From assembly GCA_035371485.1 (NCBI GenBank), contig DAOOWV010000002.1:1-54798 (forward strand): 54,798 nt of DNA, read 5' to 3'. Position numbers and translations under genes: made by a program. The first letter of the stretch is position 1. Every line of letters begins with the position of its first letter. Positions 1-54,798 of this stretch are shown piece after piece. This DNA is from Candidatus Dojkabacteria bacterium (lineage in GTDB: Bacteria; Patescibacteriota; Dojkabacteria; JAFGLO01). The notes below the pieces were generated by a model, which saw only the letters and a list, made by a program, of their open reading frames with translations, did not search any database and had not been told where the DNA came from.

Positions 1-2068
1 CATTTTCTTCTCCAGCCCCGCTATCAAAACTGTTTTCTGTCTTTTCAACGTTTAGGTTAATATAGCTTTTAGATGCAAATACACCACTTCCACTGGTCCA
101 CACTGAAACCGACGTACATTTCTCACTATTCCAATAAACATCGGGTTGTTGCCAACTAATATTTCCCGAGATAGACATACTTTTTTGTCCAGAATATGGA
201 CCTACATACAAGGCACCTCCATAAGGTGGACTACTTGTACTCCACGTACAATTTGATGGGCTTCCAGATGGGGCTGTTTTTATCCAACAGTTCCTTGGGC
301 CATCTGCATTAAATTGACAAACTTGTCTATATGTCATATTTCGAGCACACCAATCCCAACAAGCTGGCCAACCTGCTACTCCAAGAGCAACATCGAAAGG
401 AATTGTTCTAACTGTCGCTTCAGCACCACCAGTATTTGAACACCATCTGTTTTCTATTGGAACCAAATAATTATCAGCCCAAGAAAATTCTCCATCTTTA
501 GTAATTAACTCCATTTTGGCATTATAGTTATTATTACTACCATAAACCATTTCAGCCCAAACCGTCAAAAATCCCTTTCCAACATCAATAAGTTTTGGTG
601 CTTCATCATAAGTTGAATATCCAGAATATGATTTTCCATTCTCTCCCCATTGTTTAACTCCGGAAGAATTAATATATTGGATATAAATACTATTTGGTGG
701 ACCATCACTATTGTACCAAGGAATATAAAACCCTCCCTCATCATCAGAAAAAGCCGTTAGTGTATCAAATCTAGGGTAGTCATATAATAAATCCATATTA
801 GTTATAAACATTTCACTAACCTGTAGAACTTCATCTTCGACCCAAAAACACGTACAAACTTCATCTGACATACAATCAGAAGCACTTCCATAAAAGTCAC
901 GTGGACGTTGAAAATCATCACAAGAAGTTGCACCAACACAATCAGGATCATCAGACCACATTAGCGGTTCAGGGTTAAATTTGGTGCCTGGTAAGTTATA
1001 CATAGTACCACTACACACATCGTTATTTTCAAAAAAATCAGGATCATCCCAAAGAGCAACTCCAGTCGATGTAAGTTTTTGAGCAAAGACCTGACCATAA
1101 TGCCATCCGACTCGTTCATCAAACCAATATATCAATATGTTATTTTCGTCATCAGCTATTAATCTCGGATGTAACCAAAGCCAATCAATCGGTAATCTTG
1201 AGACTAGTACACCATTACTATCCCAGACAAAATTTCCTAATATATTTATTTTATATAAAGCTATTTCCGATCCCAGCCACGGAGCTCCAATCCATTCTGG
1301 ATCTTCAATTGAGTCATCATAAGGTCTGTTTAAACCAATTACTAAGTCTCCATTTCCGTCAATCGCACTATTAAAAGATAAAGTTCCCAAATAATTTGAA
1401 CCCTGTTCAATTTCTACACCATTATTCCAAAGCTTATTCCCATTTGAATCTAATAATTGAGCTACTATTTTTTCAGAAACACCCAAACTTACAGTATTAT
1501 CGTTAATAGGGGAGTAAACTGCATAAAAGTAGCCATTTTGAGCTGAAAGAATCGGAAAAACATCATAGCTAGTGTGCACATAATCAATAAAAACTCCATC
1601 TGCTCCCCATCCAAGACTACCATCCGGCATTACCTTTTGAACCATTAATTCATTATCTGGTGAAACATATCCAACATAAAGAGCATCTTCAGGTGCAGAT
1701 AATAATTTAAAAGTGAATGGGTCATAAGATTCTGAGAACACATCAAATATTAATGGGGAAGACCATATTTCAACACCATCAACATCAAATTTATTAACAT
1801 AGAGTTGGTTTCCATCAACTAACCATCCGACATAAAAATTTTCACCATCTGCACCAATTATTCTCGCATTTTGTGTCGTTGAGCCAGTAACATTTGTAAT
1901 CTCTTTTCCTAGTTCACTCCATTCAAGAAGTGGAAAAGATGTACTAGCAGAAACCCCAGTCAAATCTCTTTGAATCCATACCACTCCCAATCCCAATAAA
2001 AGCATTGATACAAAATAAAATGTCGCTTTTAAAGTAGTCTTTTTCAATGTAACTTTTATTAAACTCAT
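1..2068 (-). CDS. Large secreted/surface protein, partial (C-terminus beyond left window edge); function unknown
   Basis: Absent from the ORF track because no stop lies in the window. The ATG at 2068-2066 opens a stop-free minus frame running to position 2. The N-terminus MSLIKVTLKKTTLKATFYFVSMLLLGLGVVW looks like a signal anchor. The body is W/G/D/Y-rich with a Cys-rich block (CVGATSCDDF...CMSDEVCTCFW). Confidence 0.7.
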   Translation of the reverse strand, partial: MSLIKVTLKKTTLKATFYFVSMLLLGLGVVWIQRDLTGVSASTSFPLLEWSELGKEITNVTGSTTQNARIIGADGENFYVGWLVDGNQLYVNKFDVDGVEIWSSPLIFDVFSESYDPFTFKLLSAPEDALYVGYVSPDNELMVQKVMPDGSLGWGADGVFIDYVHTSYDVFPILSAQNGYFYAVYSPINDNTVSLGVSEKIVAQLLDSNGNKLWNNGVEIEQGSNYLGTLSFNSAIDGNGDLVIGLNRPYDDSIEDPEWIGAPWLGSEIALYKINILGNFVWDSNGVLVSRLPIDWLWLHPRLIADDENNILIYWFDERVGWHYGQVFAQKLTSTGVALWDDPDFFENNDVCSGTMYNLPGTKFNPEPLMWSDDPDCVGATSCDDFQRPRDFYGSASDCMSDEVCTCFWVEDEVLQVSEMFITNMDLLYDYPRFDTLTAFSDDEGGFYIPWYNSDGPPNSIYIQYINSSGVKQWGENGKSYSGYSTYDEAPKLIDVGKGFLTVWAEMVYGSNNNYNAKMELITKDGEFSWADNYLVPIENRWCSNTGGAEATVRTIPFDVALGVAGWPACWDWCARNMTYRQVCQFNADGPRNCWIKTAPSGSPSNCTWSTSSPPYGGALYVGPYSGQKSMSISGNISWQQPDVYWNSEKCTSVSVWTSGSGVFASKSYINLNVEKTENSFDSGAGEEN

Positions 2069-2705: not shown

Positions 2706-2745
2706 GTTAAGTGATAAGTAATAAGTAATAAGTGATAAGTACCCT
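2701..2745. repeat. Degenerate heptamer array GTRATAA (x4-5) straddling the stop codon
   Basis: gttaa gttaa, then gtgataa gtaataa gtaataa gtgataa gtaccct at 2711-2745. It has stops in all three plus frames. Confidence 0.8.
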
Positions 2746-2879
2746 AAACCCCAAAATCATATATTCTGTATCATTTAAAACAATCCCAACCTTTTTCTAT
2801 TATAGGTTGTAAAAATTCAATAACATATATAGCGTTCTTTGTGTTAAAATACTCTCAACTGTTATTAATTATTAGTAGT

Positions 2880-3046
2880 GCGCTTGTAGTCCCGACAGAC
2901 CACAACGGTAGTTGTAATGGTCTAGTCGAGGATCCTCACACCATATGATTAATAAGGAAAGTGGTGTGGGACTCAATTGGATACGCATCCGCCTCTGGCG
3001 GAGAGCAGACCTTTCTAACGATAGGACTGCTGAATATTGAAAAGAT
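2880..3046 (+). other. tRNA-Arg-like 5' portion (acceptor 5' strand, D arm, UCU-like anticodon context) interrupted by structured inserts
   Basis: Three blocks match the intact tRNA. GCGCTTGTAG (2880-2889), CTCAATTGGATA (2972-2983) and GAGCAG (3003-3008) are identical to 3047-3056, 3057-3068 and 3069-3074. They are separated by an 82-nt self-complementary insert and the hairpin TCCGCC-TCT-GGCGGA. A stem GCAGACC/GGACTGC follows, with a loop that begins TTTCTAA. Confidence 0.5.
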
Positions 3047-3120
3047 GCGCTTGTAGCTCAATTGGATAGAGCAGTCCCGTCCTAAGGGAAAGGTTGGAGG
3101 TTCGATTCCTCCCAAGCGTA
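3047..3120 (+). tRNA. tRNA-Arg (anticodon CCT)
   Basis: Cloverleaf folded by hand. Acceptor GCGCTTG/CAAGCGT (G1.U72). D arm GCTC-AATTGGATA-GAGC. Anticodon arm GTCCC-GTCCTAA-GGGAA. T arm GGAGG-TTCGATT-CCTCC. Discriminator A, and no encoded CCA. Confidence 0.85.
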
Positions 3121-3219
3121 ATGCAGATGTGGAATCGTCTTTCGTGGGAGGTTACCGCCAAAGGCGGATTAGACACTTGAGTTTTGTAAGAGTCTAGCGA
3201 TTCCTCCCAAGGCGTAAAG
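3121..3219 (+). other. tRNA-Arg-like 3' portion (T arm plus acceptor 3' strand) with a 44-nt insert in the T loop
   Basis: GGGAGG-TT (3146-3153), then insert 3154-3197 (hairpins CCGCC-AAA-GGCGG and TAGACACTT/AAGAGTCTA), then CGATTCCTCCCAAG (3198-3211, identical to 3103-3116), then GCGTA. Confidence 0.5.
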
Positions 3220-3254: not shown

Positions 3255-3656
3255 ATGAAGGATTGGAAAGAAAATTTTAATAAAACCAACCAAAAAGGAA
3301 GTGTTCTAAAAGATACCCCCAGGGGTAAAATGTATATCAGCACTCCAGATGAAATTATGTCTGTAATAAAAGAAATTCCCAAGGGGAAGATTATCAGCAC
3401 AAAAGATATAGCACAACAACTGGCCAAAAAGCATAAAGCCGATTACACATGTGGATTAACAATAGGTATTTTTGTTGCGATTATCGCAAATTATGTCGAA
3501 CAGGAAAAAATAAAAGATGTTCCATATTGGAGAGTAGTCAAAGGCAAAGGAGTTTTGTATGAAAGTTACCTCAGAGAGCCATCAAAACAAGAACAGTATC
3601 TTAAATTAGAAGGACATAAAATAGAAAAGGGGAAGATCGTAAATGCTAGATTATAA
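3255..3656 (+). CDS. MGMT-family / alkyltransferase-like DNA-binding protein (no active-site Cys)
   Basis: IPKGKIISTKDIAQQL...VPYWRVVKGKG resembles the MGMT DNA-binding domain, but the PCHR cysteine is replaced (PYWR). Confidence 0.55.
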   Translation: MKDWKENFNKTNQKGSVLKDTPRGKMYISTPDEIMSVIKEIPKGKIISTKDIAQQLAKKHKADYTCGLTIGIFVAIIANYVEQEKIKDVPYWRVVKGKGVLYESYLREPSKQEQYLKLEGHKIEKGKIVNARL

Positions 3657-3660
3657 AAAT

Positions 3661-3737
3661 TGAGAATTTTAGATTTTGAATTCTGAATTATCGAAAAGTA
3701 AGATAATTTAAAATCTAAAATTCATAATTTATAATTT
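3661..3737. repeat. Heptamer arrays (tNtGAAT type and ATAATTT type) containing a perfect 14-bp inverted repeat
   Basis: Units are tgagaat tttagat tttgaat tctgaat ... ataattt aaaatct aaaattc ataattt ataattt. gaattttagatttt (3664-3677) is the exact reverse complement of aaaatctaaaattc (3710-3723). Confidence 0.8.
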
Positions 3738-3818
3738 CTTAGGGTTACTTTTTTTTCATAAATCACGTATACTTTATTTATAGGTCTTGGTTTTCTTATT
3801 TATTTTTTATTTAATAAT

Positions 3819-4589
3819 ATGGAAAATAAAGCTAAATTCACTACAATTGCTCTTGCAATCCTCCTTATATTATTTATAGGCTACTCAGCATACGCTACTT
3901 ACACAATTATCGACCTTAGGAACGATTTAAAGAACATTGAAAATACAGCTAACACAAAAGATGATAATCAAATCGAAAGCGAAAGTACATCCAATTCAAA
4001 CACAAGTGAAAAAACGCTAAAAGAGTATATTCATCCCTTATATCCAGAGGTTAAAATTAAATATGATAACAGTTGGAAACTAGAAATAAAAGAAGAGGAA
4101 TTTACTATGTCTGTATTTTCTTCAGAATTTGATTCTATTGGAACGAAAACTTCAGTTAAAAATGTATTGATAGAATTAGAAAAAGACTCTACTAAAATCA
4201 AGTTTCACATGTCTCCCTCAATGATGTATGGTAGCGAATGTTCAGGATTCTTTTATACTAAGGAGGAGAAATCAATCAATCAATTAGAAAATGGATGGTT
4301 TAGAATTGAATCAGACACAGGATATGATTACATCAGAAATGCAGTATTTCATGGAACAGAAGATTACGAAACATTTGCTGAATGTGCACTATGGCAAAAT
4401 CAAAACGCTGACGATTATGATTTTGGTATATACGATGATGCAGGTACAGTCGTAACAGAATATAATCACGAGGGATTACTTGGTTTACTCTATATTACAA
4501 TTGAAGTTAATTCTGACAATGATTCTGAGTTATTAAAAGAAGCTGATGAAATAGTAACTCAATCTTCATATGGCTTTTACATTAAGTAA
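3819..4589 (+). CDS. Membrane-anchored hypothetical protein
   Basis: Long ORF with one N-terminal TM helix (FTTIALAILLILFIGYSAYATYTII) and an acidic extracytoplasmic body. No family recognised. Confidence 0.6.
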   Translation: MENKAKFTTIALAILLILFIGYSAYATYTIIDLRNDLKNIENTANTKDDNQIESESTSNSNTSEKTLKEYIHPLYPEVKIKYDNSWKLEIKEEEFTMSVFSSEFDSIGTKTSVKNVLIELEKDSTKIKFHMSPSMMYGSECSGFFYTKEEKSINQLENGWFRIESDTGYDYIRNAVFHGTEDYETFAECALWQNQNADDYDFGIYDDAGTVVTEYNHEGLLGLLYITIEVNSDNDSELLKEADEIVTQSSYGFYIK

Positions 4590-4641
4590 AATTGTAATAT
4601 ATAATTTTCTTTGTTCTTTATTAATTATTATTTAAATAAAA

Positions 4642-5163
4642 ATGGAAAACAAATCAGAAGCACTAAAAAAACTGCTTAAGGTCGGGGTTGAAATTGCCAG
4701 CTTGGCTTTTGTTGCCTTTGGTGCTTTTTCTGATAAGGTTAGAAGGGAGATTTTCGAAAGGGATAAGGGAACTTGCCAACGCTGTGGGAGGAGGTTTAAA
4801 GATGGTTGGATGTTGCAATGTTCGCATTTTGATCATGAAAGAAATGAAGGATATGACGATCCGGAGAATGGACAACTGGAATGCATAAGGTGTCATATGG
4901 CTAATCATTTATCGCAGATGGGCAGTTGGGGAGATGAACATTATAGAGCGGTTGTATTATTAGCTGGTCTTGTAATGAGGGAGGGATATCATACGTGGAA
5001 ATGGTACTTGGAAAATCCAGCCCGCGCCGAAGTGCAAAAGCAAGAGGATATTTCAGATATGTTTGAATTATTTGGTAGAAATGGTTATAATGCTTGGGAT
5101 TTTATAGATAATGATAATGAACAAAGTTATGTCAACAGAAGATTGGTACTTAAAAAGTATTGA
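4642..5163 (+). CDS. HNH nuclease-domain protein with N-terminal hydrophobic helix
   Basis: CQRCGRRF...CSHFDHERNEGYDDPENGQLECIRCHMANH matches the HNH/zinc-finger motif pattern. Confidence 0.6.
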   Translation: MENKSEALKKLLKVGVEIASLAFVAFGAFSDKVRREIFERDKGTCQRCGRRFKDGWMLQCSHFDHERNEGYDDPENGQLECIRCHMANHLSQMGSWGDEHYRAVVLLAGLVMREGYHTWKWYLENPARAEVQKQEDISDMFELFGRNGYNAWDFIDNDNEQSYVNRRLVLKKY

Positions 5164-5945
5164 AACAGACGTGGAATATCTAAACCCAGAATTATATCAA
5201 GATATGCTCAAAACCACCGATGTTACCGTTGCAATTCATAATGCAACTGAGATTACCTTCACAATGGCAACACAGATATTTTGTTGCAAAAAATTTACAG
5301 AAACATTTGGGGACCATGGGGGAGTGATCCCGAATGTTTTAATGATAATGAAATCAATATTGTTTTAAATCCTACAAATACAAGTTATGGTATAGCTAGA
5401 GTTTCTTTCCCAGACTTAATAAATAAGGATTTAACAAATCCTCTGTTTCTGAAGAACACATTTTCTACTATATTATTGATGGAAATAAAACGTATTGTAC
5501 CGATCTAGGATTTGATTATCATTTTGGACCCACAGGAGTAAATGAATACATTAAAAATAAATACGAAGTAATAATAAATGGTGTAAATGACGAAGATAGA
5601 ATCAAAGAAGCAGATGAATTCTTCAAGCAATATTTTGAACTAAATATTGAAAGCACTAATGACAATAATGGTGATACAAATAATTCCCTATTTTATTCAT
5701 ACGAAGGAGAACGAAATGACCTCGGAGATAACACAACTTGGTTAGTATTTAAATACACAAAAGATTCAACTGCATTGGAAAACCTACTTGACAAAAATAG
5801 ACAAACTGAATTTCCCGCATTAGCAAATTTGCAAATTGGCGACAAGTTCATAATAAAATACGATAATATTAACTGCTTAGCCGGAGCAGGAACAGGCTAT
5901 TGTAGGCTATTAACCGAAAATCTTACATTCCCAAAAGTAGAGTAG
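5129..5945 (+). pseudogene. Frameshifted gene of unknown function (three consecutive reading frames)
   Basis: Coding-like sequence continues from frame 2 (5129-5368) into frame 1 (to 5508). It then moves into frame 0 (about 5427-5945, no canonical start). The first junction lies at an A6 run near 5285. Confidence 0.5.
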
Positions 5946-30912: not shown

Positions 30913-31040
30913 TTTATTATTTTATAACTAAAATGTTTTACCAGTAATCACTTTTCGTTCTAAAACAACTCTATTCTAAAAAAAACAATTCCCTGTCGTT
31001 GCTAAAGCTTCAACAGACAAGCCGGCTTGAACGAATTAAC

Positions 31041-31075
31041 TTTTCACCTTTCACTTTTCATTTTTCACTTGTAAT
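31041..31075. repeat. Heptamer array TTTTCAC x4
   Basis: ttttcac ctttcac ttttcat ttttcac ttgtaat. Confidence 0.8.
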
Positions 31076-31076
31076 C

Positions 31077-31159
31077 TGCCGAAGGAGCTCGCACCTTACA
31101 CGAGCTGAACACGAGTTATGTTAACTCGTAATTCTAAAGAAACGATTCCCTCATTCGGC
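31077..31159 (-). other. tRNA-Leu-derived acceptor/T-arm-like element with internal hairpins
   Basis: The minus strand reads GCCGAATGAGGG...[ACGAGTT-AACAT-AACTCGT; AGCTCG-TGTAAGGTG-CGAGCT]...CTCCTTCGGCA. The 16-nt TAATCTGCCGAAGGAG at 31072-31087 exactly repeats 31181-31196, which is the tRNA-Leu 3' end plus flank. Confidence 0.5.
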
Positions 31160-31185
31160 AACCTCTTTTTCTCAACTCAATAATC

Positions 31186-31269
31186 TGCCGAAGGAGGGAA
31201 TCGAACCCTCACCCACTTGCGTGGACGGGATTTTGAGTCCCGCGTGTATACCAATTCCACCACTTCGGC
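31186..31269 (-). tRNA. tRNA-Leu (anticodon CAA), class II
   Basis: Acceptor GCCGAAG/CTTCGGC. D arm with GGAATTGGTATAC. Anticodon arm CGGGA-CTCAAAA-TCCCG. Long variable arm TCCACGCAAGTGGGT. T arm GAGGG-TTCGATT-CCCTC. Discriminator A. Confidence 0.85.
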
Positions 31270-31449
31270 GTGGTTTATTTATTTATTTGTTACGCCTTTG
31301 TGGTGAAAATTTAAGGTGTATACCCTGCCTTGACTTACGTTTCGGCAGATTCACAACCATGTTAGCAACTTCGTTGCTACAGGGTTGGAACAATTCCACC
31401 ACTCCCGCCTGCCTGTCCTTAATTACAATTGTCTGGCGGGCAGGTCGGC
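31270..31449 (-). other. tRNA-Leu-like 5' portion interrupted by two large structured inserts
   Basis: Minus-strand blocks GCCGA (31449-31445), AGTGGTGGAATTG (31403-31391, identical to 31264-31252) and GTATACAC (31323-31316, identical to 31251-31244) keep tRNA order. They are split by a 41-nt GC-rich insert and a 67-nt insert. A degenerate CTTAAAT (UAA-like) segment follows. Confidence 0.5.
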
Positions 31450-31479
31450 CCTCAATAAATAATAATTAATACCCACCCT

Positions 31480-31514
31480 CTATCAATTCTTACATATCAA
31501 CTATCACTTATCAT
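31480..31514. repeat. Heptamer array NTATCAN
   Basis: ctatcaa ttcttac atatcaa ctatcac ttatcat. Confidence 0.65.
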
Positions 31515-31547
31515 GTAATTATTTACAAAGGATTTTACCACATTCCG

Positions 31548-37005: not shown

Positions 37006-37057
37006 TATGAATAAGTAAAATTATATTTATAAGATAAAGCGATTGCACCTTTAAATA

Positions 37058-37131
37058 CACGCTTGGGGGGAATCGAACCTCCAACCCCCACTTCCGCAAA
37101 GTGGTGCTCTATCCAATTGAGCTACAAGCGC
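37058..37131 (-). tRNA. tRNA-Arg (anticodon GCG)
   Basis: It shares its acceptor and D arm with the tRNA at 3047 (GCGCTTGTAGCTCAATTGGATAGAGC). Anticodon arm CCACT-TTGCGGA-AGTGG. The T arm GGAGG-TTCGATT-CCCCC has one A.C mismatch. Discriminator G. Confidence 0.75.
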
Positions 37132-51221: not shown

Positions 51222-54200
51222 CTAATATCTCATACCTAATACAGAAGTATATTGATCACCATAAGTAAACTTCAGGTTTACATCCCTACTATTAGTTGTC
51301 TTATCTCCATCGTTTATACTAACTCCTCCTGTTGGACCACTTTTATCTATTGTAAACTTACCTGTAGTTGGAGTAACTGTATAATTTCCCGCATTATCAT
51401 AAACTTTTACATACCACTCATAGTTCGCTTCTGCAAAAGAGTTAGTCCACCAAATATCTCTTAGTTTTTCATGAATAGGTATTTCCACCCAAACAGGAAG
51501 TGTTGACTTAGTATTCAAATCCGCCCAAACATCCGATATTTCCTCTTTGACTTTTACCCCAGAACCTTCATTAAGTGGGTAATATGCAAATAATTTGGAA
51601 TATTGAGGATGGGTGTCATCAATTTCTTTAAACATCCAATTATACAGTTCCTCCTGAGTTAATTCTGCATCATAAATTCTAACCTCTCTTATGGAACCAT
51701 TAATACCGTAGTTGTCACTTGAATAGTATTTACCAAAATAAAAAGCACCAATACTAACATCTGGCAATGTATAATATAGTGTTACTTGCCTCTGATTAAT
51801 GAGTTTTCCGTCAATGTAAAGTTTATAATAACCAAACTTATCATAAGTTGTAGCAATATGATGCCAATTACTATCGACATATCCTGTAACATCATAAGAA
51901 ACCGAAGTTCTATTATACGTCGAAATTAGACTATAAGTTCCCGACATGCTATTTTTAGAAAGATATGTATACCAATACATACTAGATCCCGAATCTTTAA
52001 ACGAATACAGAAACCCATCAGGATAGGATGTTATTGGCTCAAGCTTATACCATCCCTCAATTGTCAATTCATCAGTAAACGCATGTGAAAACGTTGGATT
52101 TTCAATCCAATTATCTAACTTAAATATTAATGAACTTTTAACATCATTTATTAGATCTTCTTGCTTAACAGTGCCCAAGAGATTACTCTGGCTCCAGATC
52201 TCATATCTATTTATCCCACTAAAATTAAAAAATTCATGAAAATCATTTGTATTTCCCCAAGCTAAAGTAATATTTCCATCATTTAATAATTCATTGTTTT
52301 TATAATTTTTGATATCAAAATTATTGTCGAGATTAGGAGAATAGGTATCGGAATCATATTCAAGGTTAAAATCTGTTAATTTCGGTGTATCTATCCCACT
52401 ATTCAAATACAATTCAACCTTATATTGTACAAACCTTTTATCATCCATAATTTCAGGTAAATCTAAACCACTTGTAATCAAACTCCATCCTGAATCTATT
52501 TCTTCTTCATCATCAGCTCTAAAATAAACAATAATTGAGGTGCTAGAAGGCAAATTTTGAATCCAACTTATTATTCCCAAACGATTATAATTGGAGTAAA
52601 GATCGAAAACTTCTGAAACATAAATTCCGGATTTTACATAATGATTTCCTGAAAAACTTTGAGAACTGGAAATATTGAACATCAACAAATCATTAACACC
52701 CTGATCTTCAACATCTTGTTGTGAAATATTTGTTCCCAATATAGTAAGATCTCTAATAACTACATCCGAAAAATTAACTAAATTTGACCCAATTGTAAAA
52801 TTACCTGAGACAGAAGGAATCTGAGGCATTGAGACTTCTCCAATTTTCACACCGTTAATATATGCAGAGAATGAGCTTAAATCCCAAGTCAAAACAATTC
52901 TATGAATCTGACCTACTTCCCACTGTATACCATCGGTAGTAATTACTTTCGACTCCCCCATTTCAAAGTATAAATTATCACTATTACCATATTTATAAAT
53001 CTTAATATTGTCTGCCTCAAATAATATTTTAGGCTCATTGTCTAAATTTGATTTGGTTACAAAAGACGAGGTAGTTTTAAAAGAAAAAATAATTGTTCCT
53101 TCTGATGGGTTTATATTCCCCTCAATAGGATAGGATAGAGATGATGATAATCTTATAGAACAGGAGTCATCAGGAGTCGAAATACCGCTATCATCATTGT
53201 TCCCATCACAATTTGCATCCCAAAAATAAATATCATTATTAAATGAGTTTACCGAACCATCAAAATATTCAGAAACAAGATTTGAGGGTTCAACCTGCAC
53301 TGCATCAAGATAAACATATTCACCTGAAATAACCCCAATTCCAAAAGAATGTACCCCAGTACTTTCAGCAGTTACACTCGCACTAATCCTAAACCAAAGA
53401 TCATTCATATTTTCATACTTAGTTTCACTTGATGAAATTACATTTCCATCATAAGTTAGTTTTAGAAAATTATTGTTAATTGAACCATAAAATTGTCTTT
53501 TCGCATAAACAGAAAAAACATAATTCTGTCCCTCCTCAAGAGTAACATCAGTAGAATAATTACCATAAGACATATTTTCAATATCATATAATCCTCTTTG
53601 CGGATCAGCCGATTCAACTGAAGAGCTTAAACCCAACGTTCCATGTAACCCATTTCCTGTACAGTCTGAGACTGTTTGACCTGTAAGGTCATTCATCCTC
53701 CAATTGGCAACAAGTCCACTTGATGCTAACTCTACACATTCTTCATCAGTATATAAAATATTATAATCAGAAGATATCTCCTCTTGAGTTCGAACTTTAT
53801 TCCAAATTCTTAGATTCCCAAGAAAACCTTTATATTCAAACCCGGTATAACCTATAGCTAATCTAATTGGAGAAGTCGAGATTGAAGGTTCAATTGTGTA
53901 CGTATTAGTCGAAACCAATGTTCCATCAACATAACCCTTTATCGTTTTATTTACACTATCCCTAACTAAAGTTATATGATAAGTTTGATAATTTTGTAGC
54001 AAATCTGCAGGAACAATAATAGCACTTGTATAGTTTGACGTAGATTGACCATGATAATAATTAATTGAACCGTTAGTTTCGATTACAAATGAAAATTCAT
54101 TACCATAAGATTTGTGTAAAGGATTGGTACGAGTATACTTTAAGTTATATCCATCAAGTAATGTTGTAGCAGACAGTTCGGCTTTATTGATGTCGAATTC

Positions 54201-54798
54201 AATTGTTAAATCACCTGTAATTTGAAGAAGAACATTATTAGGAATGTTTACTACATCATTAGAACCATCAAACCATAATGAACCTTTATCGCCTGTATGC
54301 AATTCAGGACTATTAAAAACTTTTGCACCTTTTAATCCAGATAGCGAATGATCATTGCTCAATGTTGACAAGATCTCTGAAGACTTTGTCCATCCATTAT
54401 CAAAAAGAGTACTATTTTCAAATGAAGGATTTTTTACAAGATTTTGCGCTAAACCACTAACTAGAACACCTAGCTCTCGATTATAGTTTTGGGAACTATG
54501 TACGTCTAAGACCCATTTGGGTCCAGATTGATTTGGGACTCCAACCCTATACCAATTACCAATCCCTAAAATGGCATCATTATTTCTAGCAGAATCGTAA
54601 GCTTTTAGACTTGAACCATATAATTTGTTCTCTTGAAATTCATCAAAATGATACAATGCAACAGTATTATCATCTGCAACGAAATACAAAGAAGGAGTAA
54701 AATTAGAAGTATATTTAATTCCATGAGTAACAATGACTTCATCGATGTTGCCATTTAAAGATGCAGTTCCACTAGTTTGTCCCAAAAATGATGATGGT
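51222..54798 (-). CDS. Giant surface protein with repeated LamG/concanavalin-A-like lectin domains, partial (N-terminus beyond right edge)
   Basis: The frame is open to the window end (…PSSFLGQTSG), so the TTG at 54785 is not the true start. Repeated LamG_3-type endings occur: NGNIDEVIVTHG, FLGNLRIWNKVRTQEEI and INGSIREVRIYDAELTQEELY. Confidence 0.8.
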   Translation of the reverse strand, partial: PSSFLGQTSGTASLNGNIDEVIVTHGIKYTSNFTPSLYFVADDNTVALYHFDEFQENKLYGSSLKAYDSARNNDAILGIGNWYRVGVPNQSGPKWVLDVHSSQNYNRELGVLVSGLAQNLVKNPSFENSTLFDNGWTKSSEILSTLSNDHSLSGLKGAKVFNSPELHTGDKGSLWFDGSNDVVNIPNNVLLQITGDLTIEFDINKAELSATTLLDGYNLKYTRTNPLHKSYGNEFSFVIETNGSINYYHGQSTSNYTSAIIVPADLLQNYQTYHITLVRDSVNKTIKGYVDGTLVSTNTYTIEPSISTSPIRLAIGYTGFEYKGFLGNLRIWNKVRTQEEISSDYNILYTDEECVELASSGLVANWRMNDLTGQTVSDCTGNGLHGTLGLSSSVESADPQRGLYDIENMSYGNYSTDVTLEEGQNYVFSVYAKRQFYGSINNNFLKLTYDGNVISSSETKYENMNDLWFRISASVTAESTGVHSFGIGVISGEYVYLDAVQVEPSNLVSEYFDGSVNSFNNDIYFWDANCDGNNDDSGISTPDDSCSIRLSSSLSYPIEGNINPSEGTIIFSFKTTSSFVTKSNLDNEPKILFEADNIKIYKYGNSDNLYFEMGESKVITTDGIQWEVGQIHRIVLTWDLSSFSAYINGVKIGEVSMPQIPSVSGNFTIGSNLVNFSDVVIRDLTILGTNISQQDVEDQGVNDLLMFNISSSQSFSGNHYVKSGIYVSEVFDLYSNYNRLGIISWIQNLPSSTSIIVYFRADDEEEIDSGWSLITSGLDLPEIMDDKRFVQYKVELYLNSGIDTPKLTDFNLEYDSDTYSPNLDNNFDIKNYKNNELLNDGNITLAWGNTNDFHEFFNFSGINRYEIWSQSNLLGTVKQEDLINDVKSSLIFKLDNWIENPTFSHAFTDELTIEGWYKLEPITSYPDGFLYSFKDSGSSMYWYTYLSKNSMSGTYSLISTYNRTSVSYDVTGYVDSNWHHIATTYDKFGYYKLYIDGKLINQRQVTLYYTLPDVSIGAFYFGKYYSSDNYGINGSIREVRIYDAELTQEELYNWMFKEIDDTHPQYSKLFAYYPLNEGSGVKVKEEISDVWADLNTKSTLPVWVEIPIHEKLRDIWWTNSFAEANYEWYVKVYDNAGNYTVTPTTGKFTIDKSGPTGGVSINDGDKTTNSRDVNLKFTYGDQYTSVLGMRY

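What the first reader, a model, noticed from the sequence alone, without database searches (positions are those of the whole stretch)
2880..3219. Intact tRNA-Arg(CCU) nested between insert-riddled 5' and 3' pieces of a second tRNA-Arg-like gene
Blocks identical to the intact tRNA (3047-3120) recur upstream in tRNA order. GCGCTTGTAG at 2880-2889 equals 3047-3056. CTCAATTGGATA at 2972-2983 equals 3057-3068. GAGCAG at 3003-3008 equals 3069-3074. Two inserts split these blocks. One is an 82-nt insert in the D stem (2890-2971) with internal pairings AGACCA/TGGTCT, CAAC/GTTG and CACACC/GGTGTG. The other is the GC hairpin TCCGCC-TCT-GGCGGA (2988-3002). A stem GCAGACC/GGACTGC (3005-3011 / 3024-3030) follows. 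Its loop starts TTTCTAA, which is a UCU (AGA-reading) anticodon-loop context plus 5 extra nt. Downstream of the intact tRNA, 3146-3219 reads GGGAGG-TT, then a 44-nt insert with hairpins CCGCC-AAA-GGCGG and TAGACACTT/AAGAGTCTA, then CGATTCCTCCCAAG(G)CGTA. That is a T arm plus an acceptor 3' strand. Together the outer pieces look like one tRNA-Arg(UCU)-like gene broken by several structured inserts, one of which is a complete tRNA. GC-rich hairpins in an AT-rich genome argue for structured RNA rather than drift. Alternatives are scars of recombination or integration at a tRNA gene, or decaying duplicates. The extra G in CAAGGCGT and an A.A mismatch favour decay.
Basis: partly seen in the sequence, partly recalled or inferred. 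Interest (0 to 1): 0.7.

Follow-up and report, generated by a model that had tools for sequence, protein, structure and literature searches.

The report
Intact tRNAs wrapped in tRNA fragments
In a tiny-genome (Dojkabacteria/CPR) bacterium, two working tRNA genes each sit inside a shell of forward and backward fragments of themselves, separated by small hairpin inserts; this is most likely residue of repeated local copying errors, not a second spliced tRNA, but it recurs and persists across species, which is unusual for bacteria.

Summary
Exact tRNA blocks lie in tRNA order around the intact tRNA-Arg(CCU) at 3047-3120, and the locus is identical in six independent assemblies. ARAGORN and Rfam detect only the inner gene. 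The outer pieces score as tRNA-Arg(UCU) only after five segments are removed by hand.

New findings:
- tRNA-Leu(CAA) at 31186-31269 (minus strand) has the same architecture. tRNA-Arg(GCG) does not.
- A related species (L138) shares the architecture at tRNA-Leu. Its 66-nt insert sits at the same D-loop site.
- One hairpin module (CAAC-loop-GTTG-TAA) occurs in the Arg and Leu shells and shows compensatory changes.
- The flanks also hold antisense tRNA pieces, giving a sense-antisense-sense order. Relatives show snap-back junctions at other positions.
- No insert junction has a bulge-helix-bulge motif or matches any Rfam family (which include group I introns and ribozymes), and neither locus has an integrase nearby.

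The outer Arg copy has a bulged acceptor stem. The outer Leu copy lacks anticodon and T arms. My best reading is recurrent DNA-level template switching that built a co-transcribed shell, not a spliced nested tRNA (confidence about 0.5).

One result cuts the other way. Outer blocks are 25/26 identical across species whose DnaB third-codon identity is only 55%, so a functional RNA role remains open.

The parts
2880..2889 (+). Outer block, tRNA positions 1-10 (GCGCTTGTAG)
   Evidence: Exact repeat of 3047-3056.
2890..2932 (+). Insert I1, hairpin module HP1 (TCCCGAC..CAAC-GGTA-GTTG-TAA..GTCGAGGA)
   Evidence: Folds as a hairpin. Same family as L138:4623-4663 and window 31390-31350. Of 17 pairs, 85% are paired and 5 show changes on both sides. 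The motif occurs only at tRNA loci.
2933..2971 (+). Insert I1, variable hairpin HP2 (TCC-TCACACC...GGTGTG-GGA)
   Evidence: 10-bp stem in the RNA fold.
2972..2983 (+). Outer block, tRNA positions 11-21 (CTCAATTGGATA)
   Evidence: Exact repeat of 3057-3068.
2984..3002 (+). Insert I2: CGCA plus the G+C hairpin TCCGCC-TCT-GGCGGA
   Evidence: One of only two CCGCC-N3-GGCGG sites in the window. Resembles the anticodon arm TCCGCC-TTCTAA-GCGGA of tRNA-Arg(UCU) in other bacteria, with a shortened loop.
3003..3031 (+). Outer block 22-31 (GAGCAGACC), a TTTCTAA loop, and the antisense copy AGGACTGCT: a snap-back hairpin
   Evidence: 3023-3031 is antisense to tRNA 23-31 (I5, 81).
3047..3120 (+). Intact tRNA-Arg(CCU), the only detectable tRNA here
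   Evidence: ARAGORN. Rfam RF00005 at 60.8 bits.
3131..3143 (+). GGAATCG (antisense of T-loop CGATTCC) followed by TCTTTC: a terminator-like element
   Evidence: Sequence. A parallel element GGGAATCG-TTTCTTT follows tRNA-Leu. The termination role is inferred.
3144..3153 (+). Outer block, tRNA positions 46-55 (GTgGGAGGTT)
   Evidence: 9/10 identical to 3093-3102 (D14).
3154..3197 (+). Insert I4 in the T loop (55/56): the hairpin CCGCC-AAA-GGCGG plus the hairpin TAGACACTT/AAGAGTCTA
   Evidence: Contains CACTTGAGT, which is near-antisense to the D-loop block (I23).
3198..3216 (+). Outer block, tRNA positions 56-73 with one extra G (CGATTCCTCCCAAG-G-CGTA)
   Evidence: 14-nt exact repeat of 3103-3116 (D3).
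31459..31486 (-). Promoter-like site TTGATA-16-TATTAT, just upstream of the outer Leu 5' piece
   Evidence: 10 of 12 consensus matches. It ends about 9 nt before GGCCGA.
31316..31449 (-). Outer Leu 5' shell: GCCGA(1-5) | 41-nt insert | AGTGGTGGAATTG(6-18) | 66-nt insert (HP1+HP2) | GGTATACAC(18-26)
   Evidence: 31351-31341 inside HP2 is an 11-nt perfect antisense of the tRNA 3' end plus trailer.
31292..31308 (-). Spacer TTTCACCACAAAGGCGT, near-antisense of tRNA-Leu positions -2..15
   Evidence: I2. Kept in L138 (CCACCAC..GGCG), where a T.G pair becomes C-G.
31186..31269 (-). Intact tRNA-Leu(CAA)
   Evidence: ARAGORN and Rfam, 62.2 bits.
31136..31160 (-). TGCCGAATGAGGGAATCG, antisense of tRNA-Leu 67-84 (17/18), followed by TTTCTTT
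   Evidence: I1, 81, 92.
31072..31087 (-). Outer Leu 3' block CTCCTTCGGCAGATTA (tRNA 74-84 plus 5 nt of trailer)
   Evidence: 16-nt exact direct repeat.

Best explanation
Only the inner genes work as tRNAs: tRNA-Arg(CCU) at 3047-3120 and tRNA-Leu(CAA) at 31186-31269.

Each inner gene is wrapped in a shell of partial copies of a tRNA of the same type:
- forward 5' blocks upstream;
- forward 3' blocks downstream;
- backward (antisense) blocks in between.

I infer that the shell was built at the DNA level by repeated short-range template switching. In this process a nascent strand snaps back at one of the tRNA's own stem-loops or jumps to a nearby copy. That produces sense-antisense-sense arrangements of the tandem-inversion-duplication type and ready-made hairpins. 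A small two-hairpin module (HP1-HP2) was also copied between tRNA loci.

At least at the Leu locus, the shell is probably transcribed as leader and trailer of the real tRNA, folds into hairpins, and is trimmed away. It is not spliced into a second tRNA.

Shown:
- the block anatomy;
- recurrence at two of the three tRNAs in the window;
- the antisense copies;
- the shared module;
- different junctions in relatives;
- absence of known splice signals.

Inferred:
- the template-switch mechanism;
- co-transcription;
- lack of function of the outer copy.
For: 1. Sense and antisense tRNA-derived blocks occur at both loci and not at tRNA-Arg(GCG).
   - Shuffles reaching the observed sense matches: 0/2000 at both loci.
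   - Shuffles reaching the observed antisense matches: 24/2000 for Arg and 4/2000 for Leu.
2. Relatives carry different snap-back junctions at the same locus.
   - L132-L134: GCCGAAGTG-TTTA-CACTG.
   - L138 distal unit: CGAAGTGGTG-TT-CACC-TTCG, plus an extra degenerate unit.
   - The 41-nt insert at Leu 5/6 is present in the window and absent in L138.
   - Together these indicate a recurrent process rather than a fixed design.
3. The outer Arg hairpin AGCAGACCT-loop-AGGACTGCT is what a snap-back at the anticodon hairpin would produce.
4. HP1 of L138-Leu is closer to window-Arg HP1 (36 identical positions of 41-43) than to the positionally equivalent window-Leu HP1 (31). This points to copying between loci.
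5. The outer copies are not viable tRNAs.
   - ARAGORN and Infernal do not detect them.
   - The acceptor stem has a bulge and the anticodon stem has an A.A mismatch.
   - The double-cloverleaf fold is -105 against -131.5 kcal/mol for the minimum free energy fold.
   - The outer Leu copy lacks three arms.
6. No bulge-helix-bulge motif, group I intron or ribozyme is present.
7. No integrase or transposase lies near either locus, and the Leu locus sits in conserved core synteny, L31-CsoR-DnaB.
8. Published work shows that template switching can create hairpins and produce compensatory-looking changes in one step (PMC8794818, PMC7202029).
Against: - Outer Leu blocks are 25/26 identical between the window and L138, while DnaB third-codon identity is only 55%. 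By my arithmetic, the chance of this under neutrality is about 4e-6.
- The single difference (T16C) is mirrored in the inner tRNA of each species. This needs either selection or ongoing conversion.
- All seven insert junctions examined are precise, with no loss or duplication of tRNA nucleotides.
- A streamlined genome has kept 170-350 nt of supposed debris flanked by direct repeats.
- HP1 is not obviously tRNA-derived and shows covariation.
- The best promoter at the Leu locus sits exactly upstream of the outer 5' piece.
- I could not check whether another tRNA-Arg(UCU) gene exists in this genome, although AGA makes up 57% of Arg codons.
- Only the 5' side of one relative could be compared.
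Confidence: 0.5

Rival explanations
1. The shell is a selected cis-acting RNA. The leader holds a tRNA mimic (sense blocks) and an anti-tRNA segment, and the trailer holds an anti-3'-end segment plus a second mimic. The mimic captures the anti-tRNA segment as transcription proceeds, so the real tRNA can fold. The anti-3'-end segment plus U-tract terminates transcription or times 3' processing. The hairpin modules bind a factor or block exonucleases.
For: - Outer blocks are 25/26 conserved against 55% third-codon identity, and the T16C change is mirrored in both copies.
- The anti-5' spacer is kept in L138, with a T.G pair changed to C-G.
- The same sense-antisense-tRNA-antisense-sense order occurs at both loci, even though different tRNA parts are used.
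- A promoter-like site lies directly upstream of the outer Leu piece.
- HP1 shows covariation.
- GGAATCG plus a T-rich tract follows both tRNAs.
Against: - The architecture differs between close relatives whose DnaB is at least 90% identical. Insert positions are 5/6, 9/10, 12/13 and 18/19, and L138 has an extra unit.
- Leader-trailer pairing is not clearly better than shuffled sequence: 13/300 for Arg and 94/300 for Leu.
- Sense and antisense folds of the inserts are equally stable.
- tRNA-Arg(GCG) does without a shell.
- No known precedent exists.
Confidence: 0.25
2. The outer pieces are one real tRNA-Arg(UCU) gene. Its hairpin inserts are removed from the RNA, and its nested tRNA-Arg(CCU) is cut out by RNase P and RNase Z. 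The halves are then joined or held together.
For: - The blocks sum exactly to one tRNA.
- ARAGORN calls tRNA-Arg(TCT) after hand splicing. With only three inserts and the inner tRNA removed, at a relaxed threshold, it calls Arg(tct) with a 43-nt intron at the canonical 37/38 site.
- AGA makes up 57% of Arg codons, so this isoacceptor is essential.
- The junctions are precise.
- Insert sites 18/19 and 55/56 lie at the tRNA elbow, as do some archaeal non-canonical introns.
Against: - No bulge-helix-bulge motif and no self-splicing intron or ribozyme match.
- Bulged G in the acceptor stem, A.A in the anticodon stem, and nucleotide 26 missing.
- The cloverleaf fold is 26 kcal/mol worse than the minimum free energy fold.
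- A terminator-like element lies between the inner tRNA and the outer 3' piece.
- The parallel Leu shell cannot form a tRNA.
- Insert presence and position vary between close relatives.
Confidence: 0.06
3. The fragments are scars of integrative elements. Elements that target tRNA genes integrated, restored the gene with their own copy, and displaced native fragments. The elements were later almost wholly deleted.
For: - The downstream direct repeats cover the tRNA 3' end and, for Leu, 5 nt beyond it (CTCCTTCGGCAGATTA). This is typical of an att core, as described for Islander (PMC4383910).
- Leu(CAA) and Arg(CCU) are classic island targets in E. coli (leuX, argW; my own knowledge).
- The Arg locus lies at a synteny break. 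In relatives, the MGMT-family gene sits in a Memo/AMMECR1 context.
- An archaeal case of a 5' tRNA fragment left upstream by a mobile element is known (PMC3293823).
Against: - No integrase or cargo lies between the repeats, which are only 77-98 nt apart.
- The Leu locus is in conserved core synteny.
- Integration does not explain non-overlapping consecutive 5' blocks, the antisense copies, or the shared HP1 module.
- tRNA 3'-end and junction patterns gave no match in the viral contig collection.
Confidence: 0.08
4. HP1-HP2 and the G+C hairpins are small non-autonomous mobile elements, of MITE or REP type or intron-like. They insert precisely into tRNA-like DNA, and the outer copy is a dead duplicate that tolerates them.
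For: - The same module occurs in Arg (site 10/11) and Leu (site 18/19). The cross-locus, cross-species copies are the most similar pair.
- The 41-nt Leu insert is present in one species and absent in the other.
- Insertions are precise and lack target-site duplications.
Against: - There are only two HP1 copies and two CCGCC hairpins in 54.8 kb, all at tRNA loci, and none in other intergenic DNA.
- The inserts share no terminal inverted repeats or target motif.
- No transposase is nearby.
- No similar sequence was found in the phage, plasmid or viral collections.
Confidence: 0.1

Closest known systems
Displaced tRNA fragments at integration sites of genomic islands and prophages (Islander; PMC4383910)
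   Same: An intact tRNA is followed by a short direct repeat of its 3' end, which for Leu extends a few bases past the gene.
   Different: The repeats are only 77-98 nt apart, with no integrase or cargo between them. There are also 5' fragments upstream in consecutive non-overlapping blocks, antisense copies, and hairpin inserts.
Archaeal disrupted tRNA genes: multiple non-canonical introns, split tRNAs and intron transposition (PMC4090602, PMC3293823; Fujishima 2010 as cited in PMC10714607)
   Same: tRNA sequence is interrupted precisely at several non-canonical sites (D arm, T loop). Related inserts occur at different positions in different tRNAs. A 5' fragment lies upstream of an intact gene.
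   Different: The organism is a bacterium. No junction has a bulge-helix-bulge motif. An intact copy is nested inside. The outer copies are structurally defective.
Quasipalindrome / short-range template-switch mutation and tandem inversion duplication (PMC8794818, PMC7202029; TID in Salmonella from my own knowledge)
   Same: Copies run in sense-antisense-sense order. Junctions have 2-4-nt loops. Hairpins appear ready-made, with compensatory-looking changes.
   Different: Here the process is focused on particular tRNA genes, layered several times, and retained across species. No experimental link exists.
Bacterial tRNA group I introns (PMC3984707)
   Same: They are intervening sequences in bacterial tRNA-Leu and tRNA-Arg genes.
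   Different: Group I introns sit in the anticodon loop and need a catalytic core of about 200 nt or more. These inserts are 19-82 nt, lie in the D arm, acceptor stem and T loop, and match no Rfam intron model.
Palindromic insertion elements tolerated inside RNA and protein genes (Rickettsia palindromic elements; my own knowledge)
   Same: Small hairpin-forming inserts sit precisely inside a structured gene.
   Different: Those elements are dispersed in many copies. Here the copies are seen only in tRNA shells within the 55 kb available.

Membership tests
Archaeal-type intron-containing or split tRNA | Bulge-helix-bulge (or relaxed HBh') motif at each exon-intron junction | tested here: not met
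   A scripted search at seven junctions found no central 4-bp helix with flanking helices. There were two G.U-rich chance candidates without flanking helices.
Archaeal-type intron-containing or split tRNA | The spliced product is a canonical cloverleaf | tested here: inconclusive
   ARAGORN calls Arg(TCT) after hand removal of five segments. The product has a bulged acceptor G and an A.A mismatch and lacks nucleotide 26. The Leu shell cannot form a cloverleaf.
Archaeal-type intron-containing or split tRNA | Splicing endonuclease and ligase are encoded, and there is no other gene for that isoacceptor | not testable with these tools
   The whole MAG (GCA_029547425.1) could not be scanned.
Bacterial group I intron in tRNA | Insert in the anticodon loop with a P1-P9 catalytic core | tested here: not met
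   No Rfam match other than the inner tRNA at E<=10. The inserts are 19-82 nt and lie at sites 5/6, 10/11, 18/19, 21/22 and 55/56.
Integrative-element att scar at a tRNA gene | Direct repeat of the tRNA 3' end bounding the element | tested here: met
   14-nt (Arg) and 16-nt (Leu) exact repeats downstream.
Integrative-element att scar at a tRNA gene | Integrase gene and cargo between the repeats, or a recognisable remnant | tested here: not met
   Only 77-98 nt lie between the repeats. Pfam and PHROG scans of neighbouring genes show no recombinase.
Template-switch / tandem inversion duplication | Direct-inverted-direct order of copies of one segment | tested here: met
   The sense-antisense-sense maps of both loci. 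The antisense excess over shuffles is 24/2000 for Arg and 4/2000 for Leu.
Template-switch / tandem inversion duplication | Snap-back junctions with very short loops at pre-existing short palindromes | tested here: met
   L132: AAGTG-TTTA-CACT. L138: CGAAGTGGTG-TT-CACC-TTCG. Window: 3004-3031 centred on the anticodon-loop-like TTTCTAA.
Dispersed palindromic or MITE-type repeat | Many copies scattered in intergenic DNA, with terminal inverted repeats and/or target-site duplication | tested here: not met
   The motifs occur only at the two tRNA loci in 54.8 kb. No target-site duplications are present. The rest of the genome was not available.
tmRNA or other tRNA-like RNA with a large insertion | Detected by ARAGORN tmRNA mode or by Rfam models | tested here: not met
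   No tmRNA or tRNA-like family was found in the flanks.

The most novel reading that the evidence does not exclude
The shells are functional RNA. There are two versions of this reading.
- The outer Arg pieces are a true exploded tRNA-Arg(UCU). It would be matured by an unknown bacterial pathway in which hairpin inserts are removed and the nested tRNA is excised by RNase P and RNase Z, leaving ligatable 3'-OH and 5'-phosphate ends.
- More modestly, the shells are a conserved tRNA-mimic / anti-tRNA leader-trailer device that controls folding, termination or processing of the enclosed tRNA.

The probability given covers the two versions together, with the exploded-tRNA version the smaller part. 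Either version would be a bacterial counterpart of archaeal disrupted tRNA genes, with no known machinery.
Probability: 0.2. Interest if true: 0.9.

Novelty: new variant of a known kind. Interest (0 to 1): 0.55.

Why it matters
Disrupted tRNA genes (multi-intron, split, permuted) are treated as an archaeal and algal speciality, and their origin is debated.

Here a bacterium shows two intact tRNAs, each enclosed by precisely interrupted partial copies of itself. The two shells share an insert module, and the arrangement is kept in a sister species.

- If the shells are debris, the loci are a clean natural record of how short-range template switching builds hairpins and intron-like interruptions around structured RNA genes. 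That would give a plausible first step towards split or intron-bearing tRNAs.
- If the shells are functional, this would be a new class of cis-acting tRNA leader and trailer, or a new bacterial tRNA maturation route.

There is also a practical point. Such shells confuse tRNA annotation and break assemblies in CPR genomes. Several Logan contigs end inside these loci.

Tried and rejected
**Searches that led nowhere**
- Synteny through the MGMT-family neighbour. Relatives at 61-86% identity have the gene in other contexts with no tRNA-Arg upstream.
- Synteny through the YgjP-like neighbour. The only close relative's contig ends in a simple repeat 19 nt after the gene.
- Genome-collection scan with the tRNA 5' 27-mer.
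- Two metagenome scans with the tRNA 3' 27-28-mer. Both gave zero hits even though JGI contig L001 holds the sequence, so that collection lacks these samples.
- Protein search with the partial giant upstream protein. Nothing passed the threshold.
- Viral, phage and plasmid searches for the tRNA 3' end, a junction, the HP1 module and insert I1. Nothing relevant was found.

**Ideas tested and dropped**
- Known RNA families in the flanks: none at E<=10.
- A long leader-trailer processing stem: pairing is only marginally better than shuffles for Arg (13/300) and not for Leu, so I dropped it as a claim.
- A G.U wobble argument for sense-strand RNA structure: sense and antisense folds are equally good, so I dropped it.
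- A third example at tRNA-Ser in L011: the matching blocks lie inside coding sequence, so they are chance.
- Outer Leu as tRNA-Leu(UAA): a CTTAAAT string follows the block, but there is no anticodon stem and the string is not conserved in L138.
- Integron attC, IS200/IS605 ends, bridge RNA and DGR: I considered these from memory and set them aside because the required partner genes or core motifs are absent.
Full report
**Setting**

The window is an ENA metagenome contig (ERZ761562 NODE_530). It comes from a bacterium with about 31% G+C whose proteins NCBI names Candidatus Dojkabacteria, a CPR/Patescibacteria lineage. The gene content is bacterial: DnaB, RmuC, HtrA, CtpA and ribosomal protein L9. 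The finding lies in a 549-nt intergenic region between a YgjP-like metallopeptidase gene (2166-2705) and an MGMT-family gene (3255-3656).

**Checking the observation**

- None of 2000 flank shuffles reached the observed 37 nt of same-sense exact matches.
- The G+C hairpin CCGCC-N3-GGCGG occurs twice in 54.8 kb, both times here, against 0.01 expected.
- The locus is base-for-base identical in six independent assemblies apart from one SNP at 2714. It is therefore not a chimeric assembly.

ARAGORN and Infernal see one tRNA only, Arg(CCU) at 3047-3120.

**Does the outer set make a tRNA?**

ARAGORN calls tRNA-Arg(TCT) if I delete 2890-2971, 2984-3002, 3019-3023, roughly 3029-3143 and 3154-3197 by hand. 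With fewer deletions and a relaxed threshold, it calls Arg(tct) with a 43-nt intron at 37/38.

The product is poor, however:
- The acceptor stem has a bulged G (3211/3212).
- The anticodon stem has an A.A mismatch.
- Nucleotide 26 is missing.
- Forcing both cloverleaves costs 26 kcal/mol relative to the minimum free energy fold.

No junction carries a bulge-helix-bulge motif. Nothing in the flanks matches any Rfam family, including group I introns and small ribozymes, at E<=10.

**A second locus**

Reading the other tRNAs in the window changed the picture. tRNA-Leu(CAA) at 31186-31269 (minus strand) has the same architecture.
- Upstream: GCCGA | 41-nt insert | AGTGGTGGAATTG | 66-nt insert | GGTATACAC. 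These blocks are tRNA positions 1-26 in order.
- Then a spacer, then the intact tRNA.
- 98 nt after the tRNA end: CTCCTTCGGCAGATTA, which is the last 11 nt of the tRNA plus 5 nt of trailer.

tRNA-Arg(GCG) at 37058-37131 has nothing of the kind. Its sequence is identical to Arg(CCU) over the first 27 tRNA nt (a 28-nt match that includes the preceding T) and matches in 27 of the last 28. The outer Leu copy has no anticodon stem, variable arm or T arm, so it cannot be a split tRNA.

**Relatives**

Routes through the neighbours of the Arg locus failed. The 90% cluster of DnaB, the gene next to tRNA-Leu, gave usable contigs.

L137 is the same species, with one SNP.

L138 is a different species. Its DnaB is 81% identical at the nucleotide level and 55% at third codon positions. 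Its locus reads:
- GCCGAAGTGGTGGAACTG, which is positions 1-18 with no insert at 5/6;
- a 66-nt insert at the same 18/19 site;
- GTATACAC;
- a homologous spacer;
- the intact tRNA-Leu(CAA).

L138 also has a further degenerate unit upstream. L132-L134, a third species, begin the shell with GCCGAAGTG-TTTA-CACTG and then the contigs end.

The outer blocks are 25/26 identical between the window and L138. The one change (T16C) is present in both the outer and inner copies of each species. Under a neutral identity of 0.55, the chance of this is about 4e-6 by my arithmetic.

**The inserts are a family**

Three sequences share a hairpin, which I call HP1: window Arg 2890-2932, L138 Leu 4623-4663 and window Leu 31390-31350.
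- The form is T(C/T)CC-(CGAC|CAAC)...CAAC-loop-GTTG-(C)TAA...(GTCG|GTTG)...G(G/A)A.
- Of 17 pairs, 85% are paired.
- Five pairs change on both sides.
- 7/500 shuffles reach the observed covariation.

The core motif occurs nowhere else in the window or in the other Dojkabacteria loci. The most similar pair is cross-locus and cross-species, window Arg against L138 Leu. This argues for copying between loci rather than simple vertical descent.

**Antisense copies**

The flanks also hold backward copies of the tRNA.

For Leu:
- 31160-31143 is the reverse complement of tRNA 67-84 (17/18) and is followed by TTTCTTT.
- 31351-31341, inside the 66-nt insert, is a perfect 11-nt antisense of the 3' end plus trailer.
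- The spacer 31308-31292 is a near-antisense of positions -2..15. It is kept in L138.

For Arg:
- 3023-3031 is antisense to positions 23-31.
- 3131-3137 (GGAATCG) is antisense to the T loop and is followed by TCTTTC.

Antisense matches exceed shuffles, with 24/2000 reaching the observed value for Arg and 4/2000 for Leu. Each locus therefore reads sense - antisense - tRNA - antisense - sense.

**Interpretation**

A direct-inverted-direct order, junctions with 2-4-nt loops (L132, the L138 distal unit, window 3004-3031) and different junction positions in three close species are the signature of short-range template switching and tandem inversion duplication. That process is known to create hairpins and compensatory-looking changes in a single event (PMC8794818, PMC7202029).

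tRNA genes are dense in short palindromes that could seed such events. I therefore take the shells to be products of a recurrent DNA-level process, with the inner genes as the only working tRNAs. The promoter-like site TTGATA-16-TATTAT ends about 9 nt before the outer Leu piece. The shell is therefore probably transcribed as leader and removed by normal end processing.

**Why confidence is only about 0.5**

- The cross-species identity of the outer blocks, the mirrored T16C and the precise junctions look like constraint.
- The conserved anti-5' spacer and HP1 covariation point the same way.
- So does the survival of 170-350 nt of non-coding DNA flanked by direct repeats in a streamlined genome.

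Recurrent re-copying from the live tRNA could mimic that constraint, but I cannot show it. A selected tRNA-mimic / anti-tRNA leader-trailer device remains a serious rival (0.25).

The split tRNA-Arg(UCU) model stays at about 0.06. AGA makes up 57% of Arg codons, so that isoacceptor must exist somewhere, and I could not scan the genome for it.

Integrative-element scars fit the 3' repeats and the synteny break at the Arg locus. They do not fit the consecutive 5' blocks, the antisense copies, the core-synteny position of the Leu locus or the absence of any recombinase.

**Comparison with known systems**

The closest descriptions are archaeal disrupted tRNA genes (PMC4090602, PMC3293823), displaced fragments at island att sites (PMC4383910) and template-switch hairpins (PMC8794818). 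The loci share features with each and meet the defining tests only of the last.

My library searches found no report of tRNA shells or non-group-I tRNA inserts in CPR bacteria. The literature records introns in CPR rRNA genes only (PMC10714607).

**Verdict**

This is a real, recurrent and unusual feature. It is most likely a mutational by-product rather than a nested split tRNA, with a non-trivial chance of being a new cis-acting RNA arrangement.

Noticed in passing
window 31072-31486 (minus strand): tRNA-Leu(CAA) has the same shell as the Arg locus: ordered 5' blocks split by 41- and 66-nt hairpin inserts, antisense copies, and a 16-nt repeat of the 3' end plus trailer. This became central to the verdict.
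   Followed up: yes
window 3131-3143; 31136-31160 (minus); 37020-37045 (minus): Each tRNA is followed 10-25 nt downstream by a segment complementary to its own T loop and 3' side (GGAATCG; TGCCGAATGAGGGAATCG; weakly CAATCG after Arg-GCG), then a T-rich run. This may be a terminator design that uses the tRNA's 3' end as one arm of the stem.
   Followed up: partly
window 3047-3120 and 37058-37131: tRNA-Arg(CCU) and tRNA-Arg(GCG) are identical over the first 27 tRNA nt and match in 27 of the last 28. They differ essentially only in the anticodon arm, which suggests concerted evolution of the isoacceptors. Arg(CCU) has G at position 32 and a G.A pair at 27:43.
   Followed up: partly
window 2708-2742; 31495-31515 (minus); 31040-31071 (minus); L131:5540-5574: Short A/T/G-rich tandem motifs sit just after the upstream gene's stop codon or just after the shell: TAAGTGATAAGTAATAAG..., GATAAGTGATAGTTGATATG, GTGAAAA repeats, and GATAGAT repeats in a relative. 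Their role is unknown, and one of them ends a relative's contig.
   Followed up: no
window 3255-5368: The Arg locus sits at a synteny break. In relatives, the MGMT-family gene lies in a radical-SAM/Memo/AMMECR1 context. Here it is followed by an orphan 256-aa gene and an HNH endonuclease gene. The NCBI and one JGI assembly end at window coordinates 4754 and 5181, inside and just after the HNH gene, which suggests strain heterogeneity or a repeat there.
   Followed up: partly
L005 (ends at window 3093), L139 (ends at window ~31447), L132-L134, L138: Several Logan unitigs stop inside the shells or inside the inner tRNAs. This is consistent with co-existing strain variants that differ in these loci, for example in insert presence or absence.
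   Followed up: no
window 2786-2812: The hairpin CCAACCT-TTTTCTATTAT-AGGTTG is built from an antisense and a sense copy of tRNA-Arg positions 43-51. It lies 70-90 nt upstream of the shell. The match is short and may be chance.
   Followed up: no
window 2-2068 (minus) and 51222-54785 (minus): Very large secreted-type proteins lie at both ends of the window: DUF5122 in the 1212-aa form of the first and Laminin_G_3 in the 1187-aa second. A homology search with the partial first one returned nothing, probably because repetitive words saturated the candidate list.
   Followed up: no
tool coverage: The metagenome-contig collection returned no hit for a 28-mer that is present in JGI contig Ga0116252_10000811 (L001). 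Absence in that collection is therefore not evidence of absence for this lineage.
   Followed up: yes
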